Positions 17,302-51,060 of a DNA stretch of 64,000 bases are shown here, in pieces. The notes beneath the pieces were generated by a model that worked only from the letters and a program-made list of their open reading frames with translations, had not been told where the DNA came from and searched no databases. The translations under genes and the position numbers were made by a program. This DNA is from Bacteroidota bacterium (GTDB lineage: Bacteria > Bacteroidota > Bacteroidia > UBA8524). Location of the stretch: positions 121,992 to 185,991 of the forward strand of contig WGMZ01000031.1 of NCBI GenBank assembly GCA_016124735.1. The letters run 5' to 3'. Position 1 is the first letter of the stretch. Every line of letters starts with the position of its first letter.

Positions 17302-18813
17302 CTATTCTACAATTACTTTAGCAGAATAGGTATTCCCAAGATAATCCTGTATGCGGAGCAGATAGATGCCGTGAGCTAATTTCCGGGTATCCATCTCCTT
17401 TGCTGCAGGATTTATAGTTATACAGCGACCCTGCATATCGCAGAGCGTAATCGACTGCGCTTCCTTTTCATGGGGCAACTCCCAGTGCAGAATTCCACTT
17501 GTGGGGTTTGGGTAACATTTCAGCTGGCCCTGAATTTTAGGTCTTGCTAAACCAGAAATATTTTGCTTCCAATAATTCTGCACCTCATCCGCATGGATAT
17601 AATAATCGCAAATATTATCTAATACACTCTTTTGTTTTTGAGTGAAGATATAGGCAATATCCAACTTGATAATGTCTCCATGATTCAGTGAAACCGGTCC
17701 GGTGGTGCCAAGCATATTTCTTCGTCCCGGCACAATACCGGAACTTCCATATTCCGTCCATCCACTTCCTTTGCAGGGGTCGCCCTGAAAAAGAAATGAT
17801 TTTTGCGACGAATTGGGATCCGATATTTCACTTCCATCCTTCCACTTTGCTTTCATATACCCGTAGTATTCCTGGGGAGTTTCGGGCCAGCCCATATAAT
17901 TGTTTGTGTTCCAGTTGAATGAAATACTCTTATTCATGCGGGCATTTAAAAACTTGACGCCCATCACCGGTGGTTGATCGAGATAACCATTGGAATCATA
18001 AGGATAACCGTTGTAACAGAAATAACTGTTTCTCGCGCTATCGGTACTAATGTAATTATCACCATCAAAACCCAGCATAAAGTCGGTGTAGATTCCGGCA
18101 TACACTGAATCGTAGCGGGAGTAACTTCGATTTATTATCCGGTACTGAACAAAAACAACCTGCGGAAGTTCAGACATGGTGTATACCATTTGATAGACTT
18201 CCAAACCCATGGCTTGTGTGCCGCTCTGTTGATGATACGGACGCTTGTCGTTGTAAATCGAATAGGCCGCTTCCTGTCCTTTGAAATATGGTATTTCGCC
18301 GGAATCCGGCTCATAAATCATGTTTTGATTCAGGTCAATAAAGGGCGCCAATACCGGACTGTAATCTCCGGGCCGTGAATTCGATCCGGGCCAGTTTTCG
18401 ATCACCCAGGGTGCGGTATAGTTTGAGTTGTTGTAAGCTGATTTATGGATAGCCACTTGCGCGGAATCTACATGCCAAGTGAAATTCCAATAGGATGTAT
18501 CGTCTGCCTGTATTGTGCTCCGGTCTACTGGGCCTGGTTGAAAGTCTCTGCCGCTGCTGTCGTAACATGCAATGGCCAAACGAATTCCTCCGGAGCTGTC
18601 TTGCCCCCCTACCCACAGCCCGGAAGAGCGGATACCATATACTCCGGAACCTTTAGGCACTTCAAACCCAGGTTTTCCACGGTTTTCGAAATTAACCCCG
18701 GCATTTTGTACATAATAGCGTATTCCTCCCATTTGAAGCACTTCGATGCTTTGCTGGCCAAACAGAATGGTATTGAGAAAGATGAAAAAGAAAAACCCTG
18801 CCTTGCGTTTCAT
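17302..18813 (-). CDS. T9SS type-A C-terminal-sorting-domain protein (secreted, function unknown)
   Basis: 503 aa. Signal peptide. The C-terminal ~80 aa fit the T9SS CTD pattern (CYPNPTSGILHWEL...GIYLLRIQ...KVIVE). Confidence 0.7.
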   Translation of the reverse strand: MKRKAGFFFFIFLNTILFGQQSIEVLQMGGIRYYVQNAGVNFENRGKPGFEVPKGSGVYGIRSSGLWVGGQDSSGGIRLAIACYDSSGRDFQPGPVDRSTIQADDTSYWNFTWHVDSAQVAIHKSAYNNSNYTAPWVIENWPGSNSRPGDYSPVLAPFIDLNQNMIYEPDSGEIPYFKGQEAAYSIYNDKRPYHQQSGTQAMGLEVYQMVYTMSELPQVVFVQYRIINRSYSRYDSVYAGIYTDFMLGFDGDNYISTDSARNSYFCYNGYPYDSNGYLDQPPVMGVKFLNARMNKSISFNWNTNNYMGWPETPQEYYGYMKAKWKDGSEISDPNSSQKSFLFQGDPCKGSGWTEYGSSGIVPGRRNMLGTTGPVSLNHGDIIKLDIAYIFTQKQKSVLDNICDYYIHADEVQNYWKQNISGLARPKIQGQLKCYPNPTSGILHWELPHEKEAQSITLCDMQGRCITINPAAKEMDTRKLAHGIYLLRIQDYLGNTYSAKVIVE

Positions 18814-18864
18814 TTATTTCAAATTAAACCAAAGCAGGGTAAAGACTGAAAATTTTTCGTTGTA

Positions 18865-20319: not shown

Positions 20320-20839
20320 TAACTTTCTTTTGTAACCATTTTCTGGCTTTGGCTAACTGAGAACGGGATGTGCCTTCATTCACGCCGAGGGTGTCTGCAA
20401 TTTCTGCATGACTGAATCCTTCAATGGCGTAAAGGTTAAACACTACTTTGTACCCTTCGGGTAAGTCCTGAACCATCCGCATGAGTTCCCCCTGCGATAG
20501 TTTGTCCAGCACCGTTGCTTCCTGAGGCATATCGTAATTGTCGTCAATCCCGATTACCTCATTCTTAAAGCTATTCTTGCGGTATAGCTTCAAAGCAGTG
20601 TTCACCATAATCCGGCGAATCCATCCTTCAAAAGAACCGTTGCCCCTGAACTTGGAGACATTATCAAACACTTTAATAAAGCCTTCCTGCAAAATATCCT
20701 CCGCCTCGAGATCAGTACGAGCATATCGGCGACATACTGCCAGCATTTTGCCGGAGTAGGTCTTGTAGAGCGCGTATTGACTTGCCCTATCCTCGCGGAT
20801 ACACCCGTTGATCAGTTCTTCTTCACGCATAAATTGCAA
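20285..20839 (-). CDS. ECF-subfamily RNA polymerase sigma-70 factor
   Basis: 184 aa. Region 2 (DILQEGFIKVF) and region 4 HTH (EGFSHAEIADTLGVNEGTSRSQLAKARKWL). Confidence 0.88.
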   Translation of the reverse strand: MQFMREEELINGCIREDRASQYALYKTYSGKMLAVCRRYARTDLEAEDILQEGFIKVFDNVSKFRGNGSFEGWIRRIMVNTALKLYRKNSFKNEVIGIDDNYDMPQEATVLDKLSQGELMRMVQDLPEGYKVVFNLYAIEGFSHAEIADTLGVNEGTSRSQLAKARKWLQKKVIESQNIEYERK

Positions 20840-20990: not shown

Positions 20991-23108
20991 TTGTTCTCGA
21001 CCATATACATGCAAAGCTTTGATATCTTCTTCCATCTGCCTGCCTGGTATTTGCTGCTCTGTACTATTTTCGCAGCAGGCGGCGCGTGGCTATTGTACCG
21101 ATTTCCACTTTTTGGAGAAGAGGACCGTCTATGGGTCCGGCGCTTTCTGGGGGCGTTCCGCTTTGCCTTTCTTTTTATCCTGAGTGCACTATTACTGGAA
21201 CCTTTAATCCGGCATGAACGAACGGAAATAGAAAAACCCGTGGTGGCCCTTCTCGTAGATGACAGTGAATCCATTCGATTGCAGAAAGATTCGGCTGATA
21301 TCAAAGCGAAACTGGCCCAGGCAATTGAACAATTGCGCTCAGGGCTTGGAAGCACCCACCAAGTCCAGGTATTTTTAGCTGCCGATGGTATCAGCGAAGG
21401 CAAATCACCTGACTTAAATGCTCCGGCTACCAATCTATCGAAGGCACTGAAAGATCTTGACAATCAATTTGAAAACAGGAATCTGGGGGCAACCATTTTA
21501 TTCAGCGATGGATTGTATAATCAAGGGAGCAATCCGATTTATGTGATGCGCAAATCATCTGCACCGATCTATACCGTCGGGTTAGGCGATACAACTGAGC
21601 AAAGAGATCTTTGGATTGAAGAAGTACGACAAAACAGACTCGCATACCTGAGCAACCGCTTCCCATTATCCATCCGCTGCAAAGCCAATGATCTTAAAGG
21701 GCAGAATACCCGCCTACGCATCAAAAGTGGCGAACAATTGCTGCACGAGGAAACCCTTCAAATCAATGAAGAAGTTTGGTCGAAAACCCTGGATGTCAGT
21801 CTTAAAGCAGAGCATGCCGGGATGCAACGTTTTGATATTTCGCTCGAGGTTCTGCCTGGTGAGCACAGCCGCCTCAATAATCACAAAACCATCTACATGG
21901 AGGTGGTCGACGGGCGCAATAAAATTCTGATTTTAGCCGAAGCCCCGCACCCGGACTTAGCTGCCCTTAAAGAGGCCATAGAGAGCTACGACAAATACAA
22001 AGCAGAGGTCGTTTTAAGCTGGAATCTCGGGCCGGTGAATTGGAAAGATGTCAATCTTCTGATTCTCCATAGTTTGCCATCGCTGCGTTTCCCCATCGTC
22101 GATTATCTCGAAGATGCCGAAAAGAATAGTGTTCCCGTGCTTTATATTGTTGGTGAGTCGACTAATCTGAACCAAATCCGCACCTGGAGCCGGGGAATCT
22201 ATGTGCAAAGCAATCTAAGCGCCAGCAATGATGCCCTGGCTGCATTCAATCCAAATTTTCAGCTATTCACTTTGGAAGACGCAACGCTTTCGGCCCTGAA
22301 ACGCTTCCCTCCATTGTCCAGTCCGTTTGGGAATTATTCTCCCGTTCCCGACAACAGGGTGTTGTTCAAGCAAAAAATTGGAATGGTAGAATCAGGCGAT
22401 CCTCTTTTAGCCTTTTCAGATGATGCCGGACAAAAGACGGGTGTATTGTTTGGAGAAGGATATTGGCGCTGGCGATTGTACGATTACGAATTGAACGCTA
22501 ACCACAATGCCAGCGATGAAATAATCCAGAAAGTCGCCCAATATTTAGTAGCGAAGAAAGACAAACGGCCCTTTCGGGTGATTCCCGTTAAACAGCGTTT
22601 CGATGAAAACGAACGCCTTTTGTTCAGGGCCGAACTGTATAATGCCAGTTTTCAACTGGTCAATGAGCCTGACGTATTTTTAAAAGTACGGAACAGCCAG
22701 GGCAAGGAGTTTACCTATCAATTCACGCGAGATCAGGACGCCTATTCATTGGATGCTGGTTATCTTGAGCCTGGCGATTATACTTTTTCATCTACCACTC
22801 AATTTGACGGAAACCAGTACCATTCAGATGGATTGTTTTCTGTAAGTCCCCTTCAATTGGAAGCTCTCAATACACGGGCAGATTTTGATTTGCTCCGGCA
22901 ATTAGCCGACAAAAACGGTGGTCAGTTTTATACGGATGGCCAGCTTCAGAAGCTTATCAGTCAGATTGACGAGAACGAAGCCATTCACAGTATTTCTTAT
23001 ATGAAATCTAATCTGGAAGATATCATTCGTCTCCCCTGGCTTTTCTGGCTATTGGTTGTATTTATCAGCGTGGAGTGGTTTGTAAGGAAGTATTTTGGAG
23101 CCTACTAG
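20991..23108 (+). CDS. membrane-anchored VWA-domain protein
   Basis: 705 aa. Two N-terminal TM helices. MIDAS motif DxSxS (LVDDSESI) in a VWA-like domain. C-terminal TM helix (LFWLLVVFISV). Confidence 0.6.
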   Translation: MFSTIYMQSFDIFFHLPAWYLLLCTIFAAGGAWLLYRFPLFGEEDRLWVRRFLGAFRFAFLFILSALLLEPLIRHERTEIEKPVVALLVDDSESIRLQKDSADIKAKLAQAIEQLRSGLGSTHQVQVFLAADGISEGKSPDLNAPATNLSKALKDLDNQFENRNLGATILFSDGLYNQGSNPIYVMRKSSAPIYTVGLGDTTEQRDLWIEEVRQNRLAYLSNRFPLSIRCKANDLKGQNTRLRIKSGEQLLHEETLQINEEVWSKTLDVSLKAEHAGMQRFDISLEVLPGEHSRLNNHKTIYMEVVDGRNKILILAEAPHPDLAALKEAIESYDKYKAEVVLSWNLGPVNWKDVNLLILHSLPSLRFPIVDYLEDAEKNSVPVLYIVGESTNLNQIRTWSRGIYVQSNLSASNDALAAFNPNFQLFTLEDATLSALKRFPPLSSPFGNYSPVPDNRVLFKQKIGMVESGDPLLAFSDDAGQKTGVLFGEGYWRWRLYDYELNANHNASDEIIQKVAQYLVAKKDKRPFRVIPVKQRFDENERLLFRAELYNASFQLVNEPDVFLKVRNSQGKEFTYQFTRDQDAYSLDAGYLEPGDYTFSSTTQFDGNQYHSDGLFSVSPLQLEALNTRADFDLLRQLADKNGGQFYTDGQLQKLISQIDENEAIHSISYMKSNLEDIIRLPWLFWLLVVFISVEWFVRKYFGAY

Positions 23109-25081: not shown

Positions 25082-26263
25082 TTAGTTTTTTCTTAAGGTA
25101 ATTCGAAAGGTTGTTCCTTTTCCAGGAGTTGATTCCTTTACGAAAATCTTACCCCGGTGGTATTCCTCAATAATACGCTTGGCGAGAGAAAGTCCCAAAC
25201 CCCAGCCTCTTTTTTTCGTGGTAAAACCGGGCTTAAAAACATCCTTTGTTTTAGATGATGGAATACCCTTACCGGTATCCCGGATATCAATATGAATGAG
25301 GTTTTTTGTCTCTGTTAGATGAAAGCTTATCTCCCCCTGTCCTTCCATTGCATCGATGGCATTTTTGGTAATATTCTCCAAAACCCAGTCGAAGAGTTGA
25401 ACATTTACCCGGGCAAAGCAATTATGGAGTTCCTCGGCATGCACTTCAAATTTGACTTTGCTGGAAGCACGGGTACTCATATAGGCTACCGATTGGTCAA
25501 TCATGGCTTTGATATCCCGGTCTTCGAGTACAGGAGTAGAGCCAATTTTAGAAAAGCGCTCCGATACCAGCCGAAGTCTTTCTATGTCTTTTTCCATCTC
25601 TCTCAGCATTTCCTCCGTGGGAGGTCCATCTAAATCTTTAAAAAGGTCAATCCAGGCAATCAATGAGGAGATAGGTGTACCCAATTGATGGGCCGTTTCT
25701 TTGGCTAGCCCAACCCATACTCTGTTCTGCTCAGACCTTCTGGATGCACTAAATGCGAGATAAGAAACCAGTAGAAATAGCGAGATGATGCCAATCTGGT
25801 AATAGGGATAGTATTTTAACTGAGTAAGAAGGGTGGAATTGTGATAGTACACATAATTTTTCCGTCCTTCCAGGTATTCAATTACGATCGGCTCATTTTC
25901 CTTTTTCATTTCCTGCAGTTGTTCCTGCAGGTATTTCGGGTCATTGGCCCGAACGGTATCAAGGTTCTGATAGTTCAGAATGGTTCCCTGCTCATCGGTG
26001 AGGATAATGGGAATATTGTTGCTGCTGGTTCGCCTGACCTCCATGAGGAAGGTTACATCCTCATCGTCTGATTCGACGAGACGTTGCATGGCCGCAGTCC
26101 ATTGATTCACCCTGTTCTGCTCCTCCCTGGCCAATTTTTTCACCAATTGGTTGGTATAAAGCAGCGACATGATGGCAATATTCACTGCAAAAATGAGCAG
26201 TACGATTTTCCAAATCAGTTTCAGCTGAAAAGACATCCTGACGAAATTACCCAAAAAGCGCAC
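25082..26263 (-). CDS. sensor histidine kinase
   Basis: 393 aa. Two TM helices flank a periplasmic segment. HisKA H-box (AHQLGTPISSL) and HATPase_c N/G boxes. Confidence 0.8.
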   Translation of the reverse strand: MRFLGNFVRMSFQLKLIWKIVLLIFAVNIAIMSLLYTNQLVKKLAREEQNRVNQWTAAMQRLVESDDEDVTFLMEVRRTSSNNIPIILTDEQGTILNYQNLDTVRANDPKYLQEQLQEMKKENEPIVIEYLEGRKNYVYYHNSTLLTQLKYYPYYQIGIISLFLLVSYLAFSASRRSEQNRVWVGLAKETAHQLGTPISSLIAWIDLFKDLDGPPTEEMLREMEKDIERLRLVSERFSKIGSTPVLEDRDIKAMIDQSVAYMSTRASSKVKFEVHAEELHNCFARVNVQLFDWVLENITKNAIDAMEGQGEISFHLTETKNLIHIDIRDTGKGIPSSKTKDVFKPGFTTKKRGWGLGLSLAKRIIEEYHRGKIFVKESTPGKGTTFRITLRKN

Positions 26264-26282
26264 TATTCTTTAATTTGCTGCC

Positions 26283-27014
26283 GTGATTCTTGAAACAAAA
26301 CATGGCCGATTCGACCTGGATCAGGGTTTGGATCTGAGTATACCCGTTCGGCGGGGAGAAAATTCTGTGGAAGCATTCTATATCCCGCATGCCCGAATGG
26401 AGCCATTCTGTGCCGGCGGATTTGTTGGCTCTGTTACCGAAGGTGGCGCCTGCAATTGCGAAAACATTCACTTCAATGCACATGGAAACGGAACCCATAC
26501 CGAGTGTGTTGGACATGTAAGCCGCGAGGCCCATTACCTGCTCGATAGTCTTCACCGCCATTTTTTTGAAGCGCAAATTGTGAGCATCGCTCCCATAAAA
26601 CAAGAAGATGGAGATCATTTGGTTCTTCCTCATCAGATTCCCAACGAATTGCCCGAGGCACTCATTATCCGCACACTTCCCAATTCGAACGAAAAGAAGA
26701 CAAAAAAATATTCCGGAACCAACCCGGTTTATCTGCATCCGGATACTGCTACTAAAATCCGGGAAGCCGGTGTGAAACACTTATTGATTGATCAACCATC
26801 GGTTGACAAAGAAGAAGATGGAGGCGCCCTTGCAGCACATAAGAATTACTGGAATTATCCTACTCACCCACGACTCGATGCTACCATTACTGAATTGATC
26901 TATGTTTCAGAAAGCATTCCTGATGGATTTTACCTTTTGAACCTGATGACTCCCTCAATGGAGAGTGATGCAGTGCCGAGCAAGCCGATGATATTTGCAC
27001 CCATTGAAGAATAA
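26283..27014 (+). CDS. cyclase family protein (kynurenine-formamidase-like)
   Basis: 243 aa. HGNGTHTE motif characteristic of the cyclase/arylformamidase family. Confidence 0.6.
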   Translation: MILETKHGRFDLDQGLDLSIPVRRGENSVEAFYIPHARMEPFCAGGFVGSVTEGGACNCENIHFNAHGNGTHTECVGHVSREAHYLLDSLHRHFFEAQIVSIAPIKQEDGDHLVLPHQIPNELPEALIIRTLPNSNEKKTKKYSGTNPVYLHPDTATKIREAGVKHLLIDQPSVDKEEDGGALAAHKNYWNYPTHPRLDATITELIYVSESIPDGFYLLNLMTPSMESDAVPSKPMIFAPIEE

Positions 27015-27039
27015 AATATTCTCTTCGATAAATCGAGGT

Positions 27040-28161
27040 TTATTGGATCATCAACTTGGCTCTCTCTTTACGGCCACCTTCTGATTCCAACTCAAGAATA
27101 TAGGTGCCCGAAAGGATGCCGGAAATATCCAGCCAGTACTTTTCTCCCTGTGCTGATTTGTTTATCACAATTCTTCCGCTCAGGTCATAAAGTCGAACGG
27201 AAATTAGCCCTCCGGAAGTTCCAATCCAAACGCCACCGGAGGCAGGATTTGGGTATATGTTAAACTTCCCATCCACCTGTTTCAGTCCGTTGGTTTGCAC
27301 CTGAACCGACCATTCTGCGGTATCATGGCAACCGTAATCATTGATAGCCACAAGGCGGTATTGGGCATCTTCCCAAAGCTGAACCTGCAAGACATTGCTC
27401 TTTTCGGCTAACTCAATCGTTTGCCCGAAATAAAGATGATACCACTGGTAATCCAATGCCTTGCTATAGGATGAGGTTGCCTTAAGTTCATACATCCCCG
27501 CTGCCGGTAATTTCGTGTAGCCTACTCCGTCTATTTTCAGTTTGATCCCCTGTTTCACCCATATTGTGTCTTTGTAAGTATTCATTGCAGAAGCATCCCC
27601 AATTAAGGTGGTATAAACGTAATATTTCCCTTCTAACAAATGGGTCGTCCCGGAAAATGATCCTATTGATGCGACAAAGTTTTCCATACTGTCTCGCAGG
27701 GTAATTGAACCACCCAAGGTAGTCCAGTCATTGACTTCAGTATGGAATTCTACCCATCCACACCCAGATTCAATGGCAGAGTAGCTGATTCTTTCGGGCA
27801 TTCCATTTACCTGAATAAAAAAGGTATCTGTAGTCGAATTCATTCCATCGGATAAAGTTACATAAAACGGATAGGGTGTATGAGAGGAATCCGTTGCAAG
27901 TGGTGTCCAGCATAGTTGTGCTGAAGCATGTTTAACCATGCCATTATTGCATTGAAAAGTTGCTGTTTTCACTGGTGAATCCCAGGATATCCGGACGGTA
28001 TCGTTCGGGTCAATATCATCCGATTCAATTTGGAAACACGCTTGTTGTCCGGTAAGGACTGTAATCAATTTGAGACCTTGAACAAAAGTTGGAGGTGTAT
28101 TCTGTGCAAGAGCAGCAATGCAGAAAAATAATACCGGCAGTGTCAGGGAAATTCTTTTCAT
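27040..28161 (-). CDS. T9SS type-A C-terminal-sorting-domain protein (secreted, function unknown)
   Basis: 373 aa. Signal peptide. CTD pattern FNIYPNPASGGVWIG...VRLYDLSGRIV...GTYILELESEG...KLMIQ. Confidence 0.7.
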   Translation of the reverse strand: MKRISLTLPVLFFCIAALAQNTPPTFVQGLKLITVLTGQQACFQIESDDIDPNDTVRISWDSPVKTATFQCNNGMVKHASAQLCWTPLATDSSHTPYPFYVTLSDGMNSTTDTFFIQVNGMPERISYSAIESGCGWVEFHTEVNDWTTLGGSITLRDSMENFVASIGSFSGTTHLLEGKYYVYTTLIGDASAMNTYKDTIWVKQGIKLKIDGVGYTKLPAAGMYELKATSSYSKALDYQWYHLYFGQTIELAEKSNVLQVQLWEDAQYRLVAINDYGCHDTAEWSVQVQTNGLKQVDGKFNIYPNPASGGVWIGTSGGLISVRLYDLSGRIVINKSAQGEKYWLDISGILSGTYILELESEGGRKERAKLMIQ

Positions 28162-28213
28162 ATCTCAAAGAGAACGCATCTGACGCGAGTTTGTTGCCTG
28201 GCAATGCAGGTTT

Positions 28214-31200
28214 TTACCTAACCAGGCTAATTGTGCCGCTTAGGTTCTTCCTTCCTCCATCGTCCAAATCTACTTTTAGCTGATAGATATAGGCTCCTGT
28301 GGGAAGAAGTTCACCACTGCGTTGGTCGGTACCATCCCAATGGAAATTCGGATCGCTCGATTCGTAAATCAATGCTCCCCAACGGTCATAAATCTTGATA
28401 TGCAGGGCATAGATCCCTGTTCCTGTTACAAAGAATTCGTCGTTTAATTTGTCATCATTTGGCGTGAATCCGCTGGGCACATAGCAGCTGAAGATTTCTC
28501 TTACCTGGTAAACGGCTTCTGCGGTATCCTTGCAGCCAAACTCTGATTCAACAAAATACAAAACAGTGTAATGACCGGTATCCGCGTAGCGATGGAATGG
28601 AGCAAAGAGCTGAGAATTTGCACCGTCTCCAAAGTCCCAGTAGTTTTTATAGGCGTGGGACGTTTTATTTACGATATGCGCTGTTGGCTCTAATATGGTG
28701 CTACTCTCAGGCTTAAAACTAATTTGTGCTACTGGTTTCGGATGTACCACAATCGGCACGTATTCGGAAGTATCGGTACAACCATAAATGCTGGTCACTA
28801 CCAAACGTGTTTGGAATGTTCCCGGTGCATCATACAAATGTGCACCATAGGGGTCGCTCTTACTTTCATAAACATTGGTCTCATATTCCCAGAACCAATT
28901 GCAGTATCCGCCCAAGGCGAAATAGTCTGAAGAGAAAAGCACTTCCATCGGCTGACATCCCGTATCAAGATCAACTGAGAAATGGGTGTCTGGCAATGGA
29001 GCCAGTCGAACACTAACCGTATCATAGGATGGGAAGGAACAATTGTCTGTTAAAGTGACGACATAATCTTCTGCCGTGTAGGTAATGACTGCCTTCTTAT
29101 TGCCGTTCCCCAAACCGTGGCTCCAGGTATATTGGTAATTGGTTGGAACTCCACCACTGGCATAGGCTTTCATTACGATGGGCCGGTCGGGACATATTAA
29201 TGTATCGCCCGTTGCTACCACTTTTAATGGAGTCGAAATCTTCACTTTCACCTCTGCGGTATCCCAGGGACTGCATCCATCACTGATCATTACACGGAAT
29301 GTGGAATCAATCAAAGGTTGGACATGCTGAACCGCTCCATTCCCAACATATTCCCAATGGTAGGAATAATTTCCAAGAAGTCCGCCCTTGCCAACTGCCT
29401 GAACCGTTGCAATGGCACCGTGACAAATCGTGGTATCGCTTGGAGTTGCAGAAACTTCCAATGGGTCTCTCAAAGTCACCTTGATTGTAGAAGAGTCGTT
29501 GATTACTGTGCAGTTATCCTGCAATCTCACCGAATAAGTCGATGAAGCTGCCGGAGTTACGCTGTAAGGAATATTTGCCGGAAGGGTGGTTTCTGTGGTT
29601 CCATCGCTCCATACAAACTCATAAGTTGGACTATTTCCGCCTGTTCCGTATGCACGCAGCAAGGCGGTGTTGCTCACGCAAATCGTTGTATCGGGACTCG
29701 TACTAATGCTCAATGGGTTTCGGAGACTTACTTTGAACGAATCATCTGTTGATAACAAGGTACAGTTATCTGTGAGTGTGACCGTATACGTCGTTTCCTG
29801 ACTTGGGGTAATTTTAATGACATTTCCGGGGCCAATATTTTTCCAGTTGAATGTATAGTGTAGAGAGTCGCCTCCCGATCCGTCAACATGGAGGTACATA
29901 CTTTCGCCCCGACATATTAAGGTGTCTGACTGAACTTTGAGGTTCAAGGGGAATCTCAGGCTGATATTGATGGATGTCGTATCCGTAAAATTGGTACAGG
30001 CATCCGATAATTTCACTTTATAGGTAGTTACCTGTTGAGTTGGCACAACATATACCGAATCCCTGGATGGAAGGTTATGGTCCCAGGTGAAGGTATATCC
30101 TCCGGAAAAGCCGCCCGTTCCCCAAACATTCAGTAATATTCCCTGGCCGTTACAAATGGTGGTATCAGTACGCGAGAAAATGCGCAGTGAGTCACGCCGA
30201 AAAGCCGTAAAATAAGCGGAATCTTTTTCATCCGAACATCCTCCATCATCTACTACCAATTTAAAAGTAATTGATGTATCCTGACTTGGCCAGGTAAAGG
30301 CACTGTCCGTCTTTACCAGATTGGTATCGACATACCAATTATAATGGTATTGAGAATCCAATCCTCCGGAAGTGAGTGCATAAATATTAACCGATTCACC
30401 GATGCAAAGGGTGGTGTCTGAGCGTGGATTTGCCTTGAGGTGGCCCCTTACATTGATTGTAACGATTGCCGTATCCCTGAGTATGGAGCAACTATCGTAT
30501 AAAACCGCCTTATAAGGAGTGGTTAGGCGCGGATTGACCAATACAGAGTCTCCATAATCTACCACCGAATTATCCAGGCTGTTAATCCAGGTATAATGGT
30601 ATTGTTTCGGTTTACCCCCCGTTGCTGTGGTCGTTAACCAAACCGATTCTCCCTGACAAATTGTTGTGTCCTGGCGTGGAATCAAACGAGGCTGAGAAAT
30701 GACCCGCATAGTCATGGTGTCCAGAAAATAGCAGGATGTTGCCGAGTCTACACTTCGAAGAATAAACGAATGTGTTGAATCCGGATAAATGCTTGGATCT
30801 ACCAGGGATGAATCGTTCAGAAAAATATCTGAAAACCAGGCGAAATCTATTCCGCCACTTGCATGCAGGGTTATTGTATCGCCGTAACACATGGAGTCAT
30901 CACTCCCCGCGTTGGTTGGAGGAACCCCTTTTATGGTCAAATTTGTCTCGAATGGATAACCTCTTACAGCAGGCGCTGTTCCACTTACCCTCAAACGATA
31001 GCCAGTTCCTTCCGGCGAAGTGAGTGGTAGGACCCCGGATAAAACCCCCGAGCCCGTATCCTTTATGGAGCCAATATTAACAGCATCAAAGAAAACACCT
31101 GTCCGGTTTGACAATTCGATATAAAACATATTCGTTGTGTCAAATACTTCATGTTTGGTATACCAAACCCTGATAGAGTCACCAGGGCAGGCTGTTTTTG

Positions 31201-32824
31201 GCGCAAACGAATCAATCTCAATATAATTCTCACGAATAGCCCATATAACCGGAGTATTGTATCCAAGGCCCGTCTCCCACGCAATCACATTGGTGTCGTT
31301 ATTAAAGTACAAGCCGATGGTATCACCTTCAACCGAAGTACCCCAGCTTTTGCTGTCTTTCCAATAAGTTGCTCCGGCATTATCCGTTGCCACCCCACCC
31401 CCATTGGTTTTTTCATTCCAATAGTACACGGTTCCGGTATGCAAACGGGTACCCGAACGGGCATTCCAGTCGCAGGAGCCATTCTTAGATATTTTTAACA
31501 GGAAAGCATCCGTTTGATAATAGCCGCCTCCCCAGGCTGTCGCCGAAAAAGGAGGCACATAAAACTGACAAATACTCGTCGAATCCGTTGTTCGGTCGAT
31601 CGTGCCGGATACAAATATTTTACCCGAATAATCGACATCCATGGAAGCGATGTTGATGCGTTGATTCAACCACCACCAGCCTGAAGGATTGCTGGTCGTT
31701 GTATTGTCACCAAAGCGTTTGACCCAATCTATAGTTCCATTGTTATTCAATCTGGAAACATATAAATCATCGAATCCAAGTCCTCCATTATTGGTGAACT
31801 TGGCGTTACCAAAACTATCTGCCCCTGACGATGATTGCATTTTACCTCCAACATAAATATACCCTTGCTCATCTACTGCCAAAGCAGAAGCGGTCGATCC
31901 CATTTGGGTCGCCCAAACCGGAGTACCATTGTTTGGAAATACCCTCATCACAAAGCCATTTTGATCGCTTTGTGTCGATCCGGCATAGAGCTTACCGCTC
32001 CCGGATTGAATGGTATTTGTAAAAGATCCCGAAACATACACGCGCCCGGTACGGTCAACTTTCACGTCTCCTCCCGCCGATTGCCAGGCTGATTGACCAT
32101 CTGCCGTAGCAATTCGCTTGCAGTAATAAGCGCTGCCATCTGTTGCTAACTTGAGTAAGAAAACACTCCAGCCCTGGCTGCTGCCAGAGATACCAGTATT
32201 TCCATATTGGAAATAGCCCTGAAACAATCCAGTAATATAAATATCGCCATTGGCGCTGCAAGTAATTCCGGTCGGGTAATCATTTGCATTTCCTCCAACA
32301 GTCATCGCCCAGTCCACGACGCCATCAGGTTTGATTTTCACCAGCCAAATATCTCCTTGCCCATAACTTCCAACTGTTTGACCCGCAATAGAAGTAACTC
32401 CATTGTAGGTCGATCCGATGATATAAGAATTCCCTGCTGTATCAATTGCAAGGGAAGTAGTCCACAGATACCCCGTCGCATCTATTGAAGTAGCCCATTG
32501 AGCAACTCCCTTTCGGTTGTACTTGGCCATGTATGGCGTAGCATATTGATTCGACCCTGCCTGGGCATAAACACTGTCTCCAAAATCAAGAGCCCCTGTT
32601 CCATAACCGGCATAACTGTACTGACTTCCTATTGAATAGACATTTCCGTACTCATCGCAAACCATATCACGAGAACCAGAGCCCCAGGTAGCTGTGCTCC
32701 AATAATGCGCGCCCTGTCCATCTACTTTGCTCCAATCGTATTTTTGGCCACTAACAGAGGCAACAGAAAATAGAAATAAAACAAGAACCGTTAATAACGA
32801 TTTCGAGTTTTGGTTTTGTCTCAT
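28214..32824 (-). CDS. large cell-surface adhesin-like protein with beta-propeller repeats, ~8 tandem SprB-type repeats, a PKD-like region and a T9SS type-B (gliding-motility-associated) CTD
   Basis: 1536 aa. Signal peptide. N-terminal repeated G..Y..G / DG..W motifs consistent with SBBP beta-propeller repeats. Eight ~85-aa repeats carry DTTIC.GES..L...GTGG...Y.Y.W. C-terminus matches the type-B CTD (FTPNDDKLNDEF...IYDRWGALIY...WDG...GAYIYQL). Confidence 0.75.
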   Translation of the reverse strand: MRQNQNSKSLLTVLVLFLFSVASVSGQKYDWSKVDGQGAHYWSTATWGSGSRDMVCDEYGNVYSIGSQYSYAGYGTGALDFGDSVYAQAGSNQYATPYMAKYNRKGVAQWATSIDATGYLWTTSLAIDTAGNSYIIGSTYNGVTSIAGQTVGSYGQGDIWLVKIKPDGVVDWAMTVGGNANDYPTGITCSANGDIYITGLFQGYFQYGNTGISGSSQGWSVFLLKLATDGSAYYCKRIATADGQSAWQSAGGDVKVDRTGRVYVSGSFTNTIQSGSGKLYAGSTQSDQNGFVMRVFPNNGTPVWATQMGSTASALAVDEQGYIYVGGKMQSSSGADSFGNAKFTNNGGLGFDDLYVSRLNNNGTIDWVKRFGDNTTTSNPSGWWWLNQRINIASMDVDYSGKIFVSGTIDRTTDSTSICQFYVPPFSATAWGGGYYQTDAFLLKISKNGSCDWNARSGTRLHTGTVYYWNEKTNGGGVATDNAGATYWKDSKSWGTSVEGDTIGLYFNNDTNVIAWETGLGYNTPVIWAIRENYIEIDSFAPKTACPGDSIRVWYTKHEVFDTTNMFYIELSNRTGVFFDAVNIGSIKDTGSGVLSGVLPLTSPEGTGYRLRVSGTAPAVRGYPFETNLTIKGVPPTNAGSDDSMCYGDTITLHASGGIDFAWFSDIFLNDSSLVDPSIYPDSTHSFILRSVDSATSCYFLDTMTMRVISQPRLIPRQDTTICQGESVWLTTTATGGKPKQYHYTWINSLDNSVVDYGDSVLVNPRLTTPYKAVLYDSCSILRDTAIVTINVRGHLKANPRSDTTLCIGESVNIYALTSGGLDSQYHYNWYVDTNLVKTDSAFTWPSQDTSITFKLVVDDGGCSDEKDSAYFTAFRRDSLRIFSRTDTTICNGQGILLNVWGTGGFSGGYTFTWDHNLPSRDSVYVVPTQQVTTYKVKLSDACTNFTDTTSINISLRFPLNLKVQSDTLICRGESMYLHVDGSGGDSLHYTFNWKNIGPGNVIKITPSQETTYTVTLTDNCTLLSTDDSFKVSLRNPLSISTSPDTTICVSNTALLRAYGTGGNSPTYEFVWSDGTTETTLPANIPYSVTPAASSTYSVRLQDNCTVINDSSTIKVTLRDPLEVSATPSDTTICHGAIATVQAVGKGGLLGNYSYHWEYVGNGAVQHVQPLIDSTFRVMISDGCSPWDTAEVKVKISTPLKVVATGDTLICPDRPIVMKAYASGGVPTNYQYTWSHGLGNGNKKAVITYTAEDYVVTLTDNCSFPSYDTVSVRLAPLPDTHFSVDLDTGCQPMEVLFSSDYFALGGYCNWFWEYETNVYESKSDPYGAHLYDAPGTFQTRLVVTSIYGCTDTSEYVPIVVHPKPVAQISFKPESSTILEPTAHIVNKTSHAYKNYWDFGDGANSQLFAPFHRYADTGHYTVLYFVESEFGCKDTAEAVYQVREIFSCYVPSGFTPNDDKLNDEFFVTGTGIYALHIKIYDRWGALIYESSDPNFHWDGTDQRSGELLPTGAYIYQLKVDLDDGGRKNLSGTISLVR

Positions 32825-32988
32825 GATATCTCAAAATTACTTTAATCGTTACAAATCAGGGAGATTTTCACAGATTTAATCGACTAAAATAGAGCTTGGT
32901 TTGAAGGAAAGATGTGTTTAGTTAACGAAACGTTGCCTACTGTTTAGGCATTTATCGAAACCCGAATGAATTTTACTATTTTCGACCA

Positions 32989-33438
32989 ATGAAGTATGCA
33001 ATTCTTTTGATGTCAACTTTGTTCATTAGTTCCTGCGCATTGCTTAAAAAAAAGCAGTGCACCGAAATTAATCTGGGTACCCCAAACGTTTTTATGACTC
33101 AGGTAACCCCTGATGCCGGGATGTATATTTTTAAAATCACAGAAGGAGAATTAAACCAAACTGAATTGCACTTAAATATTCAGATTGAAACGGGTGATAA
33201 AGATGCATTTATCATCAAAATGGGAGAAGAACCCAAAAGTAAAATGATCCATAAAGAGGCCTGGGTATGGAAACAGAAGGTGAACGAAGAAAAGATGGAG
33301 GTAAGTGCAACAGGACAGATTCAATTGGATTATGCAGGAAAAGTTTATTGCTTCAATCTAACTTATGAAGGCAGCTCTATGAAAATGCCCATGCCGGAAG
33401 GCGCGCCGCCAGAAGCACCTCGTGAGATGCCTCATTAA
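32989..33438 (+). CDS. hypothetical lipoprotein
   Basis: 149 aa. Lipobox LFISSC. No recognisable family. Confidence 0.45.
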   Translation: MKYAILLMSTLFISSCALLKKKQCTEINLGTPNVFMTQVTPDAGMYIFKITEGELNQTELHLNIQIETGDKDAFIIKMGEEPKSKMIHKEAWVWKQKVNEEKMEVSATGQIQLDYAGKVYCFNLTYEGSSMKMPMPEGAPPEAPREMPH

Positions 33439-34055
33439 TGCCTGAAGTAATCAAAAAGCAGATACGCAGCAATTCCGATAAAAACCATTCCAGTGATGCG
33501 GTTAACCCAAACCAGAATGGAATCATTGAGAAATTTTTTAATCCGGTGTGCAAGGAATGAGATCAACACTTCTGCCCCGAATATAGCAATCAGGCATCCG
33601 GCGAAAAAAATGACCAGATGCGATGTATCATAACCCCAGGTTCCTCTTGCCATGGCCGCAATGCCTGCCCAAAACAAAAAATTCACCGGATTCAGAATAT
33701 TTAAAAGGAAGCCATTACTCACGAATGAAAATAGAAACATGGCTTTTCCTAACTTACTTTCCGGGTAGCTTAATTGCTTCTGCTTTCCAAATAGTAAATT
33801 TAAACCCAGCGCAGTGAGCAGAATGACAGCCCCGGCATATATCCAGATATTTTTCTCTTCCGGATCCATGAAGGAAACCCCCAGTATGGCCAAACAAATG
33901 AAGATAAAGTCGGAAAAGACGACACCCGATGCAATCAACATCCCTTTTTTCCAACCGTGGGTAATGCTGTTTTGGATCAGCGAAAAAAAGACGGTACCGA
34001 GCATAAAACTCATCCCAAAACCAAATACCAGTCCTTTCCCCAGGGCATATATCAT
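33435..34055 (-). CDS. LysE/RhtB family amino-acid exporter
   Basis: 206 aa. Six predicted TM helices. Pattern typical of LysE-type translocators. Confidence 0.7.
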   Translation of the reverse strand: MIYALGKGLVFGFGMSFMLGTVFFSLIQNSITHGWKKGMLIASGVVFSDFIFICLAILGVSFMDPEEKNIWIYAGAVILLTALGLNLLFGKQKQLSYPESKLGKAMFLFSFVSNGFLLNILNPVNFLFWAGIAAMARGTWGYDTSHLVIFFAGCLIAIFGAEVLISFLAHRIKKFLNDSILVWVNRITGMVFIGIAAYLLFDYFRH

Positions 34056-49096: not shown

Positions 49097-49507
49097 CTAC
49101 CAGCTAATACTTCTTTTTCCATCTTCCTCATGATTCAGGCTCACCCGAATTCCCTCTTCCGGCAATAAATCCAGCACCACTTCGGGCCATTCAATCAGAC
49201 AAATTGAACCTGAATCCAGGTATTCCAAAAATCCGATATCGAGTGCCTCATCCAGGCTGTTCATACGGTATAAATCGAAATGAAAAATGTGTTCGTCTGA
49301 ATTTTGATATTCATTAACCAGGCCAAAACTTGGGCTCGACACAAAATCACTTACTCCTAATGCTTTGCATATTTCCTGAATAGTAGTGGTTTTTCCCGTT
49401 CCCAAATTTCCGGAAAAGGTCATTATTCTTGATTCCTTTACCAGGTTTGCCAATGTTTTAGCCACCTCCCGTGTATTTTCTATGCTGGAAAGCAGATACT
49501 TTGGCAT
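49097..49507 (-). CDS. tsaE: tRNA threonylcarbamoyladenosine biosynthesis protein TsaE
   Basis: 136 aa. Walker A GNLGTGKTT typical of YjeE/TsaE. Confidence 0.85.
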   Translation of the reverse strand: MPKYLLSSIENTREVAKTLANLVKESRIMTFSGNLGTGKTTTIQEICKALGVSDFVSSPSFGLVNEYQNSDEHIFHFDLYRMNSLDEALDIGFLEYLDSGSICLIEWPEVVLDLLPEEGIRVSLNHEEDGKRSISW

Positions 49508-51060
49508 TATCCTTTTCCTTTGAGTGAGACAATCGGTATCATCATCTCTTCCATAGAAATACCTCCATGCTGAAAGGTATCCCGATAATATTTCACGTAG
49601 TAATTGTAGTTATTCGGATACGCGAAAAATCCTTGTTCCTCTGCAAAGACATAGGCCGAGCTCACGTGCAGGCGGGGTAAAAATCCTTCTGCCGGATTCT
49701 TGATCTCAAAAACTTCCTTTCGGTCGTAGCTCAGATTCTTGCCTTGCTTATAACGCAAATTGGTATTGGTATTTTTATCGCCCACAATTTTAATTGGATC
49801 TTTGACCCGGACGGATCCGTGGTCTGTTGAAATAATCAATTTCACCTTTTTATCGCTGATGCGTTTAAGTGCTTCCAACAAAGGCGAATGCTCAAACCAA
49901 CTTAAAGTCACAGAGCGGTAGGCTGCCTCATCTTCCGACAACTCACGCATCAATGACACATCAGTACGGGCATGTGACAATGCATCCACGAAATTGTAAA
50001 CTATCACACTCAGGTCAAAATTCAGCATGTTCGGGATCTGGTCTACCAGGCTCTTACCTCCGTCCAGATTGGTTATTTTGGTATAGCTGAACTTTGTGCC
50101 TTTTCGGGTTCTGTTTAATTGATCTGCGAGAAAATCTTCTTCAAAATTGTTCTTCCCTCCCTCGTCTTCGTCGTTGCTCCACATCTTCGGAAACCGCTTT
50201 TCAATTTCTGAAGGCAGGAGGCCGGAAAAAATCGAATTCCGGCAGTATTGGGTGGTAGTTGGGAGAATACTCATATAAAGGTCTTCCTCCTCCACCGTAA
50301 AATATTCACTCAGCACCGGTTGTATCACTTTCCATTGATCAAAGCGCAGATTGTCAATCAAGAGAAAAACCACCGGGGTTTCACCGTCCACATGAGGAAG
50401 GATTTTACGGCGCATCAACTCATGACTCATCATCGGCGCTTTCGGATCCCGGTTATTGACGAAGTTAAGGTAGTTTTTCCGAACAAAATCCGACCAGTTA
50501 TGATTGGCCTCGGCCTTTTGCGTATTCAACACTTCATCCATCCCGGAATCTTTCGATGCACGAAGCTCCAGGTCCCAATACACCAACTTCCGGTACATTC
50601 CTTTCCACGCCTCGAAATCCAAATCATCCATAAAAGCCATGGAGATATTGCGGAAATCCTGCTGGTATCCCTGGGCCGTCTTTTCGGAGATGAGACGTTT
50701 GTTATCGACTATCTTTTTAATGGTCAGCAAAATCTGATTCGGATTCACCGGTTTGATCAGGTAATCGGCAATTTTAGAACCGATGGCCTCCTCCATGATG
50801 TATTCCTCTTCACTTTTGGTAATCATCACCACGGGCACGTCGTTCATGGCTTCTTTGATTCGACTCAGTGTTTCCAGTCCGCTTAAGCCCGGCATGTTCT
50901 CATCTAAAAAGATGACATCGAAGCGCTTTTTCTGAACTTCATCCACCGCATCAAGACCACTGTTTACGGTGGTTAAATCGTATCCTTTTCCTTGCAGAAA
51001 GAGAATATGGGGTTTCAATAAATCGATTTCGTCGTCAGCCCAGAGTATTTTAATTGCCAT
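49507..51060 (-). CDS. porX: response regulator with C-terminal PglZ (alkaline-phosphatase-like) domain, PorX-like
   Basis: 517 aa. N-terminal CheY receiver (ILWADDE...D at FLDENMPG) and a ~380-aa C-terminal PglZ-type domain. Length and architecture match the T9SS regulator PorX. 1-nt overlap with tsaE. Confidence 0.65.
   Translation of the reverse strand: MAIKILWADDEIDLLKPHILFLQGKGYDLTTVNSGLDAVDEVQKKRFDVIFLDENMPGLSGLETLSRIKEAMNDVPVVMITKSEEEYIMEEAIGSKIADYLIKPVNPNQILLTIKKIVDNKRLISEKTAQGYQQDFRNISMAFMDDLDFEAWKGMYRKLVYWDLELRASKDSGMDEVLNTQKAEANHNWSDFVRKNYLNFVNNRDPKAPMMSHELMRRKILPHVDGETPVVFLLIDNLRFDQWKVIQPVLSEYFTVEEEDLYMSILPTTTQYCRNSIFSGLLPSEIEKRFPKMWSNDEDEGGKNNFEEDFLADQLNRTRKGTKFSYTKITNLDGGKSLVDQIPNMLNFDLSVIVYNFVDALSHARTDVSLMRELSEDEAAYRSVTLSWFEHSPLLEALKRISDKKVKLIISTDHGSVRVKDPIKIVGDKNTNTNLRYKQGKNLSYDRKEVFEIKNPAEGFLPRLHVSSAYVFAEEQGFFAYPNNYNYYVKYYRDTFQHGGISMEEMMIPIVSLKGKG

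What the first reader, a model, noticed from the sequence alone, without database searches (positions are those of the whole stretch)
27040..32824. SprB-repeat adhesin with a type-B T9SS CTD but no adjacent PorP/SprF-family gene; its neighbour is a type-A CTD cargo protein
The 1536-aa protein combines N-terminal beta-propeller-like repeats, eight SprB-type repeats (DTTIC.GES..L...GTGG...Y.Y.W) and a C-terminus matching the gliding-motility-associated (type-B) CTD. In characterised systems type-B CTD cargo, such as SprB, needs a cognate PorP/SprF-like outer-membrane partner encoded immediately downstream. Here the downstream gene (27040..28161) is an unrelated secreted protein with a type-A CTD. 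The upstream gene is a small lipoprotein. Either the partner is encoded in trans or this cargo uses a different attachment route. A third type-A CTD protein lies 9 kb away at 17302..18813.
Basis: partly seen in the sequence, partly recalled or inferred. Interest (0 to 1): 0.55.

Follow-up and report, generated by a model that had tools for sequence, protein, structure and literature searches.

The report
Orphan type-B T9SS surface protein
This is a large secreted surface protein of an uncultured Bacteroidota bacterium whose type-B secretion tag has no carrier (PorP/SprF) gene next to it, an arrangement that is already described and turns out to be the common case, so the finding is ordinary.

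Summary
The gene at 28214-32824 (-) encodes a 1536-aa protein with a signal peptide, an SBBP beta-propeller, 7+1 Ig-like repeats of about 80 aa, two PKD domains and a genuine type-B T9SS C-terminal domain (CTD) (TIGR04131 49.5 bits, cut-off 35). No PorP/SprF gene lies next to it, in the 64-kb window, in 10 kb beyond its left edge, or within 10 kb of four orthologues in other genomes.

Two points fail. The repeats are not SprB repeats (PF13573 8.5 bits against a cut-off of 28). The premise that type-B cargo needs an adjacent PorP/SprF gene is too strong. Three of the 12 F. johnsoniae type-B substrates are published "orphans", served in trans by the SprF-like shuttle Fjoh_1677. In my sample of 94 type-B genes from reference genomes, 76 (81%) had no PorP/SprF gene downstream.

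The best reading is an orphan type-B cargo collected and anchored by a PorP/SprF-family carrier encoded elsewhere. A PorX regulator in the window shows that a T9SS is present. GenBank already annotates the protein as "T9SS type B sorting domain-containing protein". It is a new member of a known kind, of low interest.

The parts
28214..32824 (-). Gene for the 1536-aa type-B T9SS cargo protein (GenBank MBI1222841.1, 'T9SS type B sorting domain-containing protein', Bacteroidota MAG)
   Evidence: ORF. Family matches. Exact match to P0001. Ten full-length orthologues at 48-71% identity.
32747..32824 (-). Sec-type signal peptide, aa 1-26 (MRQNQNSKSLLTVLVLFLFSVASVSG)
   Evidence: Read directly from the translation. 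No signal-peptide predictor was available.
31235..32746 (-). SBBP-type beta-propeller region, about aa 27-530
   Evidence: PF06739 35.5 bits in 3 stretches. PDB CylK propeller E 1.7e-11 over aa 117-373. 52-73% identical among orthologues.
29000..30904 (-). Eight Ig-like repeats of about 80 aa (one degenerate at aa 641-708, seven clear at aa 716-1275), each with the motif DTTIC..(13 aa)..GG....Y.Y.W and a second conserved Cys
   Evidence: Self-HMM gave 8 domains, seven at 83-106 bits. PF19081 Ig_7 25.2 bits and PF13573 SprB only 8.5 bits.
28502..28999 (-). Two PKD domains, about aa 1276-1441
   Evidence: PF18911 48.4 bits. In the AlphaFold model, the last PKD domain superposes on collagenase and PrtV PKD domains at 1.4-1.8 A rmsd.
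28217..28501 (-). Type-B T9SS C-terminal sorting domain, aa 1442-1536
   Evidence: TIGR04131 49.5 bits (cut-off 35) and PF13585 60.6 bits (cut-off 27). It keeps all nine columns invariant across 27 diverse type-B CTDs. 47-75% identical among orthologues. A profile of the CTD hits the C-terminus of GhpA, PDB 9flp, at E 4e-11.
27040..28161 (-). Downstream gene, 52 bp after the stop codon on the same strand: a 373-aa secreted protein with a type-A CTD (aa 302-373, window 27043-27258)
   Evidence: TIGR04183 50.0 bits (cut-off 23) and PF18962 42.7 bits. Signal peptide MKRISLTLPVLFFCIAALAQ. Orthologues sit directly downstream in L002, L003 and L005, and are separated by an inserted gene in L004.
32989..33438 (+). 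Divergently transcribed 149-aa lipoprotein-like ORF restricted to this lineage
   Evidence: A lipobox-like signal is conserved in all five copies. Only 5 database hits, at least four of them (by their contig lengths) on contigs that also carry the big protein's orthologues. The AlphaFold model is all-beta with pLDDT 80.5 and has no PDB match at E<=0.001.
17302..18813 (-). Third cargo gene: a 503-aa protein with a type-A CTD (aa 434-502)
   Evidence: TIGR04183 36.9 bits (cut-off 23) and PF18962 39.3 bits.
49507..51060 (-). PorX, the T9SS response regulator (context showing the organism has a T9SS)
   Evidence: NF052313 T9SS_RR_PorX 823 bits (cut-off 300). Response_reg + PglZ domains.

Best explanation
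[quoted passage not shown] The proposed path is as follows. The protein is exported by Sec through its N-terminal signal peptide and passes the outer membrane through the T9SS translocon. Its uncleaved type-B CTD is then collected by a PorP/SprF-family outer-membrane carrier encoded elsewhere in the genome. That carrier could be the general PorP or an orphan SprF-like shuttle shared by several cargos. The protein stays non-covalently anchored to the carrier and displays its propeller, Ig-like and PKD domains on the cell surface. The 373-aa neighbour is a separate cargo that takes the type-A route (PorV shuttle, then PorU cleavage with attachment or release). What is shown here: the domain identities, the absence of a linked PorP/SprF gene, conservation of the gene and its CTD, and the presence of a T9SS regulator. 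What is inferred from published systems: the trans carrier, CTD retention and surface anchoring.
For: - The type-B CTD scores above curated cut-offs and no type-A model matches it. All invariant CTD residues are kept. The CTD is as conserved among 10 orthologues (47-75%) as the rest of the protein, so it is under selection.
- No PorP/SprF gene was found in the window in any frame, in 10 kb beyond the window's left edge, or within +-10 kb of the four orthologous loci in other genomes, L002-L005 (L001 is the same sequence as the window).
- PorX is encoded 17 kb away and there are two type-A cargos in the window, so a T9SS is present.
- Published precedent: only 9 of 12 F. johnsoniae type-B genes are adjacent to a sprF-like gene. 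The three orphans (Fjoh_1123, Fjoh_1720, Fjoh_4934) are secreted through the unlinked shuttle Fjoh_1677, and cross-talk between shuttles occurs (PMC12618676). P. gingivalis PG1035 binds PorP itself (PMC9143113).
- Base rate: among 94 type-B genes in 72 loci from GTDB species representatives, 15 had PorP/SprF immediately downstream, 3 had it further along a tandem array, and 76 had none. Only 15 of the 72 loci held any PorP/SprF gene within +-10 kb.
Against: - The trans-encoded carrier was not found, because only about 74 kb of this genome could be read. Its existence is inferred.
- The base-rate sample was selected by CTD similarity to this protein and used mechanical ORF calls, so 81% may overstate the phylum-wide orphan fraction.
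- The window CTD's nearest neighbours are mixed (10 orphan and 5 PorP-linked among the top 15 at 40-45% identity), so the sequence does not say which kind of carrier serves it.
- No experiment exists for this lineage.
Confidence: 0.8

Rival explanations
1. The cargo uses an attachment route that does not involve PorP/SprF. It would be held on the surface by a lineage-specific partner encoded next to it: either the small divergently transcribed lipoprotein (32989-33438) or the co-directional type-A CTD protein (27040-28161).
For: The lipoprotein gene abuts the 5' end of the big gene in the window and in all four orthologous loci, even where another gene has been inserted on its far side (L003, L005). 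The type-A gene follows within 52-70 bp in the window and in 3 of the 4 orthologous loci. Neither partner has an assigned function.
Against: The whole neighbourhood is syntenic housekeeping DNA (LysE, SSF, RbfA, FtsX / cyclase, kinase, TonB, RuvX, Def), so retained adjacency is expected without any functional link. In L004 a 634-aa opposite-strand gene separates the type-B and type-A genes. The lipoprotein has homologues only in this lineage, so no independent co-occurrence could be tested. A type-A gene behind a type-B gene occurs in 4 of 94 unrelated cases, as expected from cargo-gene clustering. All characterised type-B cargos use PorP/SprF proteins.
Confidence: 0.07
2. The CTD is a vestige and the protein is no longer a T9SS substrate, being periplasmic or decaying, which would explain the missing partner.
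For: Only that no partner gene was found nearby.
Against: The ORF is intact at 1536 aa, and ten orthologues of 1522-1547 aa were found. The CTD keeps every invariant residue of the family and is among the better-conserved regions. The signal peptide is intact.
Confidence: 0.03
3. A PorP/SprF gene is in fact adjacent but was missed by gene calling or is too divergent to recognise.
For: None found.
Against: The interval 26283-34055 is filled by the cyclase, type-A, type-B, lipoprotein and LysE genes, with gaps of 164 bp or less. A six-frame stop-to-stop scan with a two-round PorP/SprF HMM gave no window hit at E<=10 with filters off. True hits scored 1e-39 or better and the next-best hits were at E>0.8, so separation was clean. 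Pfam PF11751 did not match any neighbour.
Confidence: 0.01

Closest known systems
Orphan type-B T9SS substrates of Flavobacterium johnsoniae (Fjoh_1123, Fjoh_1720, Fjoh_4934) with their unlinked SprF-like shuttle Fjoh_1677 (PMC12618676)
   Same: A type-B CTD cargo gene with no porP/sprF-like gene genetically linked to it, in an organism with a T9SS. This is the same organisation seen here.
   Different: The passenger domains were not compared and orthology was not tested. The shuttle in this genome is unidentified. The lineage is an uncultured Bacteroidota MAG, not Flavobacterium.
SprB-SprF gliding adhesin and carrier pair of F. johnsoniae
   Same: A large, repeat-rich, signal-peptide-bearing surface protein ending in a type-B CTD. 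Short motif resemblance (GG....Y.Y.W) within the repeats.
   Different: The SprB repeat model PF13573 is not matched (8.5 bits against a cut-off of 28). There is no sprF downstream and no other gliding genes alongside. From my own knowledge, SprB is about four times longer than this 1536-aa protein.
Porphyromonas gingivalis PG1035-PorP-PorE complex (PMC9143113)
   Same: A type-B cargo anchored by binding a PorP-family barrel, with the CTD left uncleaved. It is a model for a general PorP serving a cargo.
   Different: PG1035 is small (about 50 kDa) and is the only type-B protein of its genome. No PorP or PorE gene could be located here.
CHU_C / 'gliding motility-associated C-terminal domain' giant proteins with Ig_7 (PF19081), PKD and SBBP modules in Cytophagia, Chitinophagia and Saprospiria; includes GhpA grappling-hook protein of Aureispira (PDB 9flp)
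   Same: The same modular build: propeller or Ig-like/PKD arrays followed by a PF13585 CTD. The CTD profile hits GhpA residues 5814-5888 at E 4e-11. Many database relatives share PF13585 + PF18911 +/- PF19081.
   Different: Only 23-36% identity outside the 10 orthologues. The Ig-like repeats fall just under the PF19081 threshold. Nothing suggests a grappling-hook assembly.

Membership tests
T9SS type-B CTD cargo (TIGR04131 / PF13585 CHU_C) | A C-terminal domain matching the family model above the curated cut-off, located at the extreme C-terminus | tested here: met
   TIGR04131 49.5 bits (cut-off 35) over aa 1449-1536 of 1536. PF13585 60.6 bits (cut-off 27).
T9SS type-B CTD cargo (TIGR04131 / PF13585 CHU_C) | Conserved CTD motif residues | tested here: met
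   All nine columns invariant in an alignment of 27 diverse type-B CTDs (F12 P14 N20 R40 W41 G42 W55 G57 G89) are present.
T9SS type-B CTD cargo (TIGR04131 / PF13585 CHU_C) | An N-terminal Sec signal peptide | tested here: met
   MRQNQNSKSLLTVLVLFLFSVASVSG-QK, read from the translation. By inspection only; no predictor was run.
T9SS type-B CTD cargo (TIGR04131 / PF13585 CHU_C) | The host encodes a T9SS | tested here: inconclusive
   PorX equivalog at 823 bits and two type-A cargos are in the window. The core genes (sprA/sov, gldKLMN/porKLMN, porV, porU) lie outside the readable sequence.
T9SS type-B CTD cargo (TIGR04131 / PF13585 CHU_C) | Secretion depends on a PorP/SprF-family carrier and not on PorV | not testable with these tools
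   This needs genetics or co-immunoprecipitation.
Cognate type-B cargo / PorP-SprF gene pair (SprB-SprF type organisation) | A porP/sprF-like gene (PF11751 / TIGR03519) directly downstream of the cargo gene | tested here: not met
   The downstream gene is a type-A CTD protein. No PF11751 or custom-HMM hit anywhere in the window or in L001-L005.
Orphan type-B substrate (sensu PMC12618676) | A type-B CTD gene not genetically linked to a sprF-like gene | tested here: met
   No PorP/SprF gene within at least 28 kb on either side. The same holds within +-10 kb in the four orthologous loci from other genomes.
Orphan type-B substrate (sensu PMC12618676) | Served by an unlinked (orphan) SprF-like shuttle | not testable with these tools
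   The rest of the genome could not be scanned.
SprB repeat proteins (PF13573) | Repeats matching PF13573 above its gathering score | tested here: not met
   8.5 bits, E 2.1, against a cut-off of 28, on the isolated repeat region. No precomputed PF13573 hit in any of the 10 orthologues.
Ig-like domain, CHU_C associated (PF19081 Ig_7) | Repeats matching PF19081 above its gathering score | tested here: inconclusive
   25.2 bits in 3 stretches against a cut-off of 27.3. One orthologue, P0005, carries a precomputed PF19081 hit.
T9SS type-A CTD cargo (TIGR04183 / PF18962), for the neighbours 27040-28161 and 17302-18813 | A C-terminal domain above the curated cut-off plus a signal peptide | tested here: met
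   50.0 and 36.9 bits (cut-off 23). PF18962 42.7 and 39.3 bits (cut-off 27). Signal peptides visible.

The most novel reading that the evidence does not exclude
In this uncultured lineage, the conserved trio (small all-beta lipoprotein with no relatives or fold match in the searches run here | type-B giant protein | 373-aa type-A cargo) could be a functional unit. The lipoprotein or the LPS-anchored type-A protein, rather than a PorP/SprF barrel, would tether or chaperone the type-B cargo. That would be a PorP-independent anchoring route for type-B substrates.
Probability: 0.05. Interest if true: 0.55.

Novelty: new member of a known kind. Interest (0 to 1): 0.12.

Why it matters
It matters little as a discovery. 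The protein is already annotated as a type-B T9SS cargo, and orphan type-B cargos have a published mechanism. The useful by-product is a rough base rate. Among 94 type-B genes sampled from reference genomes across Bacteroidota, only about one in five had a PorP/SprF gene behind it. The 'cognate pair encoded side by side' rule drawn from F. johnsoniae should therefore not be used to flag exceptions in genome scans. How a few carriers serve many cargos remains the real open question.

Tried and rejected
- Organism identity. A search with the LpxC/FabZ protein and a cluster look-up gave only 'Bacteroidetes/Bacteroidota bacterium' MAG labels. The taxonomy below phylum remains unknown.
- A broad 27-sequence CTD alignment (A1) was too diverse for the locus finder, so I used the 8-orthologue alignment A2 instead.
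- Classifying the CTD as 'orphan-type' or 'PorP-linked-type'. Nearest-neighbour status was concordant in 82 of 94 cases against about 69% expected. That may only reflect orthology, and the window CTD's own neighbours were mixed. Uninformative.
- The small upstream lipoprotein. A profile search found only 5 proteins, with no homologues outside this lineage. The AlphaFold model (pLDDT 80.5) had no PDB match at E<=0.001. No function can be assigned.
- A structure model of the last PKD domain plus the CTD returned only generic PKD and beta-sandwich matches. The type-B CTD of GhpA matches by sequence, but no fold-search hit covered GhpA's C-terminal CTD.
- Promoter and terminator scans around the gene pair were at background level.
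- Reading further along the genome. 10 kb beyond the left edge holds no PorP/SprF gene. The right-edge look-up returned only a 3.9-kb contig.
- ORF 26247-26780 (-) was rejected as a gene. It is the antisense shadow of the cyclase gene.
- Rfam and tRNA scans of the window found nothing.
Full report
**What is there**

The ORF at 28214-32824 on the minus strand encodes 1536 aa. It starts with a typical Sec signal peptide, MRQNQNSKSLLTVLVLFLFSVASVSG. The domain order is:
- An SBBP-type beta-propeller region, about aa 27-530. PF06739 scored 35.5 bits in three stretches. The region resembles the CylK propeller in the PDB at E 1.7e-11.
- An unassigned segment of about 110 aa.
- Eight tandem Ig-like repeats. 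A self-derived HMM finds seven clear copies at aa 716-1275 (83-106 bits, period 77-85 aa) and one degenerate copy at aa 641-708.
- PKD domains. PF18911 scored 48.4 bits. In an AlphaFold model of the last 180 aa (pLDDT 80.8), the last PKD domain superposes on solved PKD domains at 1.4-1.8 A.
- A C-terminal domain at aa 1449-1536 that matches the type-B T9SS sorting domain. TIGR04131 scored 49.5 bits (cut-off 35) and PF13585 scored 60.6 bits (cut-off 27). No type-A model matched at E<=0.01.

The CTD keeps all nine columns that are invariant in an alignment of 27 diverse type-B CTDs. A profile of it hits the C-terminus of the Aureispira grappling-hook protein GhpA (PDB 9flp) at E 4e-11.

The exact protein is in GenBank as MBI1222841.1, 'T9SS type B sorting domain-containing protein', from a Bacteroidota MAG.

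**The neighbours**

- Downstream, 52 bp after the stop codon and on the same strand, 27040-28161 encodes a 373-aa protein with a signal peptide and a type-A CTD (TIGR04183 50.0 bits, cut-off 23).
- The gene at 17302-18813 also ends in a type-A CTD (36.9 bits).
- Upstream and divergent, 32989-33438 encodes a 149-aa protein with a lipoprotein-like signal.
- ORF 26247-26780 is only the antisense shadow of the cyclase gene.

**What is not confirmed**

The repeats are not SprB repeats. On the isolated repeat region, PF13573 scores 8.5 bits (E 2.1) against a gathering score of 28. The best model is PF19081, 'Ig-like domain CHU_C associated', at 25.2 bits against 27.3. None of the ten orthologues has a precomputed PF13573 hit, and one has PF19081. 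The resemblance is limited to a short GG....Y.Y.W motif.

**Is a PorP/SprF gene really absent?**

- The ORFs of 249 aa or more that I scanned with Pfam, which cover the plausible PorP/SprF candidates, gave no PF11751 match.
- I built a PorP/SprF HMM from 15 ORFs found downstream of type-B genes in other genomes. Three of them were checked as PF11751 at 128-157 bits.
- I ran that HMM against every stop-to-stop reading frame of 60 aa or more. The window and all five loci carrying this gene or its orthologues gave no hit even at E<=10 with filters off. Real hits scored 1e-39 or better.
- The interval around the gene is completely filled by other genes, so revised gene calls cannot produce one.
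- Ten further kilobases beyond the left window edge also lack it.

**Conservation**

Ten full-length orthologues (1522-1547 aa, 48-71% identity) exist in metagenome assemblies. I inspected four orthologous loci from other genomes, plus a second assembly of this one. The order is always small lipoprotein (divergent), type-B gene, then type-A gene. In one locus (L004) a 634-aa opposite-strand gene has been inserted between the two cargo genes. None has a PorP/SprF gene within 10 kb.

The surrounding genes are housekeeping and equally syntenic: LysE, a sodium:solute symporter, RbfA, a methyltransferase and FtsX on one side; a cyclase, a histidine kinase, TonB, RuvX and Def on the other. The retained adjacency therefore does not by itself argue for a functional unit.

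The CTD is as conserved (47-75%) as the propeller and the Ig-like repeats, and more conserved than the PKD pair. This argues that it is functional.

**Is the arrangement unusual?**

It is not, on two grounds.

Literature:
- Reviews state that type-B genes and PorP/SprF genes are 'usually clustered' (PMC10202324).
- In F. johnsoniae, however, only 9 of 12 type-B genes are adjacent to a sprF-like gene.
- The three 'orphans' are secreted through the unlinked SprF-like shuttle Fjoh_1677, and shuttles show cross-talk (PMC12618676).
- P. gingivalis PG1035 is anchored by PorP itself (PMC9143113).

My own count:
- A scan of one genome per GTDB species with the CTD profile returned 80 loci from many orders of Bacteroidota.
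- These loci held 101 C-terminal type-B CTD ORFs, of which 94 had at least 1.5 kb of sequence downstream.
- Of those 94, 15 had a PorP/SprF gene within 300 bp downstream, 3 had one further along a same-strand array, and 76 (81%) had none.
- Only 15 of the 72 eligible loci contained any PorP/SprF gene within +-10 kb on either strand.
- Seven non-PorP downstream ORFs checked against Pfam were unrelated enzymes or, in one case, a type-A cargo.
- Four of the 94 type-B genes are followed directly by a type-A CTD gene, so that pairing recurs too.

**Mechanism**

The best-supported explanation has confidence of about 0.8. The protein is an orphan type-B cargo. It would be exported by Sec and pass through the T9SS translocon. 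A PorP/SprF-family carrier encoded elsewhere would collect it by its uncleaved CTD and anchor it non-covalently on the surface. The neighbouring 373-aa protein follows the separate type-A route through PorV and PorU.

A T9SS is present in the organism. A PorX equivalog (823 bits, cut-off 300) lies at 49507-51060.

Shown here: the domain identities, the absence of a linked carrier, conservation, and the T9SS regulator. Inferred: the trans carrier, CTD retention and surface display. 'Adhesin' is an architectural inference only.

**Rivals**

- A PorP-independent route using the lineage-specific lipoprotein or the type-A neighbour (0.07). It cannot be excluded, but it rests only on adjacency within a fully syntenic region. 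The lipoprotein has no homologues outside this lineage and no structural relative at E<=0.001.
- A vestigial CTD (0.03). The conservation argues against it.
- A missed adjacent gene (0.01). This was tested and rejected.

**Comparison and verdict**

The protein works like, and meets the definition of, an orphan type-B substrate in the sense of PMC12618676. It is not a SprB-repeat protein and not a member of the cognate-pair organisation. It belongs to the large class of modular CHU_C-tailed surface proteins. It is a new, uncharacterised member of a known kind, already correctly annotated. Interest is low (0.12).

The decisive missing step is a whole-genome scan of the MAG for PorP/SprF paralogues, followed by AF3 pairing with this CTD.

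Noticed in passing
window 49507-51060 (-): A 517-aa Response_reg + PglZ protein is a full-length equivalog of PorX, the T9SS response regulator (NF052313, 823 bits against a cut-off of 300). It lies 17 kb from the type-B gene.
   Followed up: partly
window 17302-20839 (-): An ECF sigma factor (20285-20839), a 484-aa protein with an OMP_b-brl_2 domain (18865-20319) and the 503-aa type-A CTD cargo (17302-18813) form a co-directional run. This may be a sigma-regulated cargo unit. The same order appears in L001.
   Followed up: no
window 32989-33438 (+); L002-L005 about 9380-9960 (-): A small lipoprotein-like ORF (mature part about 125-135 aa, all-beta model with 8 strands, pLDDT 80.5) always abuts the 5' end of the type-B gene. 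It has only 5 database relatives and no PDB fold match at E<=0.001. Function unknown.
   Followed up: yes
window 27040-28161 (-) versus L001 14886-15785: The public (Logan) gene call for the type-A neighbour is 299 aa. The 373-aa ORF from the ATG at 28161 has a clean signal peptide, and orthologues are 368-381 aa, so the longer call is the right one.
   Followed up: yes
window 26247-26780 (-): This 177-aa ORF is an antisense shadow of the cyclase gene 26283-27014 (+). Its apparent conservation in L002-L005 tracks the cyclase gene.
   Followed up: yes
window 20991-23108 (+); L001 19717-21816, L002 22031-24130, L004 22755-24629: A protein of about 700 aa with no Pfam or NCBIfam match occupies the same position in the window's genome (L001) and in L002 and L004.
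   Followed up: no
L031 14-15665, L046 1346-15438; L051, L053, L065: There are tandem arrays of two to four type-B CTD genes. Some end in a single PorP/SprF gene (L031, L046), which suggests one carrier for several cargos. Others have no carrier gene in the locus (L051, L053, L065).
   Followed up: partly
L006-L085 (94 type-B CTDs): CTDs with a linked PorP/SprF gene tend to have a PorP-linked CTD as their nearest sequence neighbour from another locus (15 of 18). Overall concordance was 82 of 94 against about 69% expected. This may reflect CTD classes matched to carriers, or simply orthology.
   Followed up: partly
L011 (CAYHBE010000185.1): A 4.1-kb contig carrying a type-B CTD gene (42% identical to the window CTD) is binned in a MAG labelled 'uncultured Dehalococcoidales'. 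It is probably a mis-binned Bacteroidota contig.
   Followed up: no
window 1-64000: No tRNA gene and no Rfam family at gathering score was found in the whole 64-kb window.
   Followed up: yes
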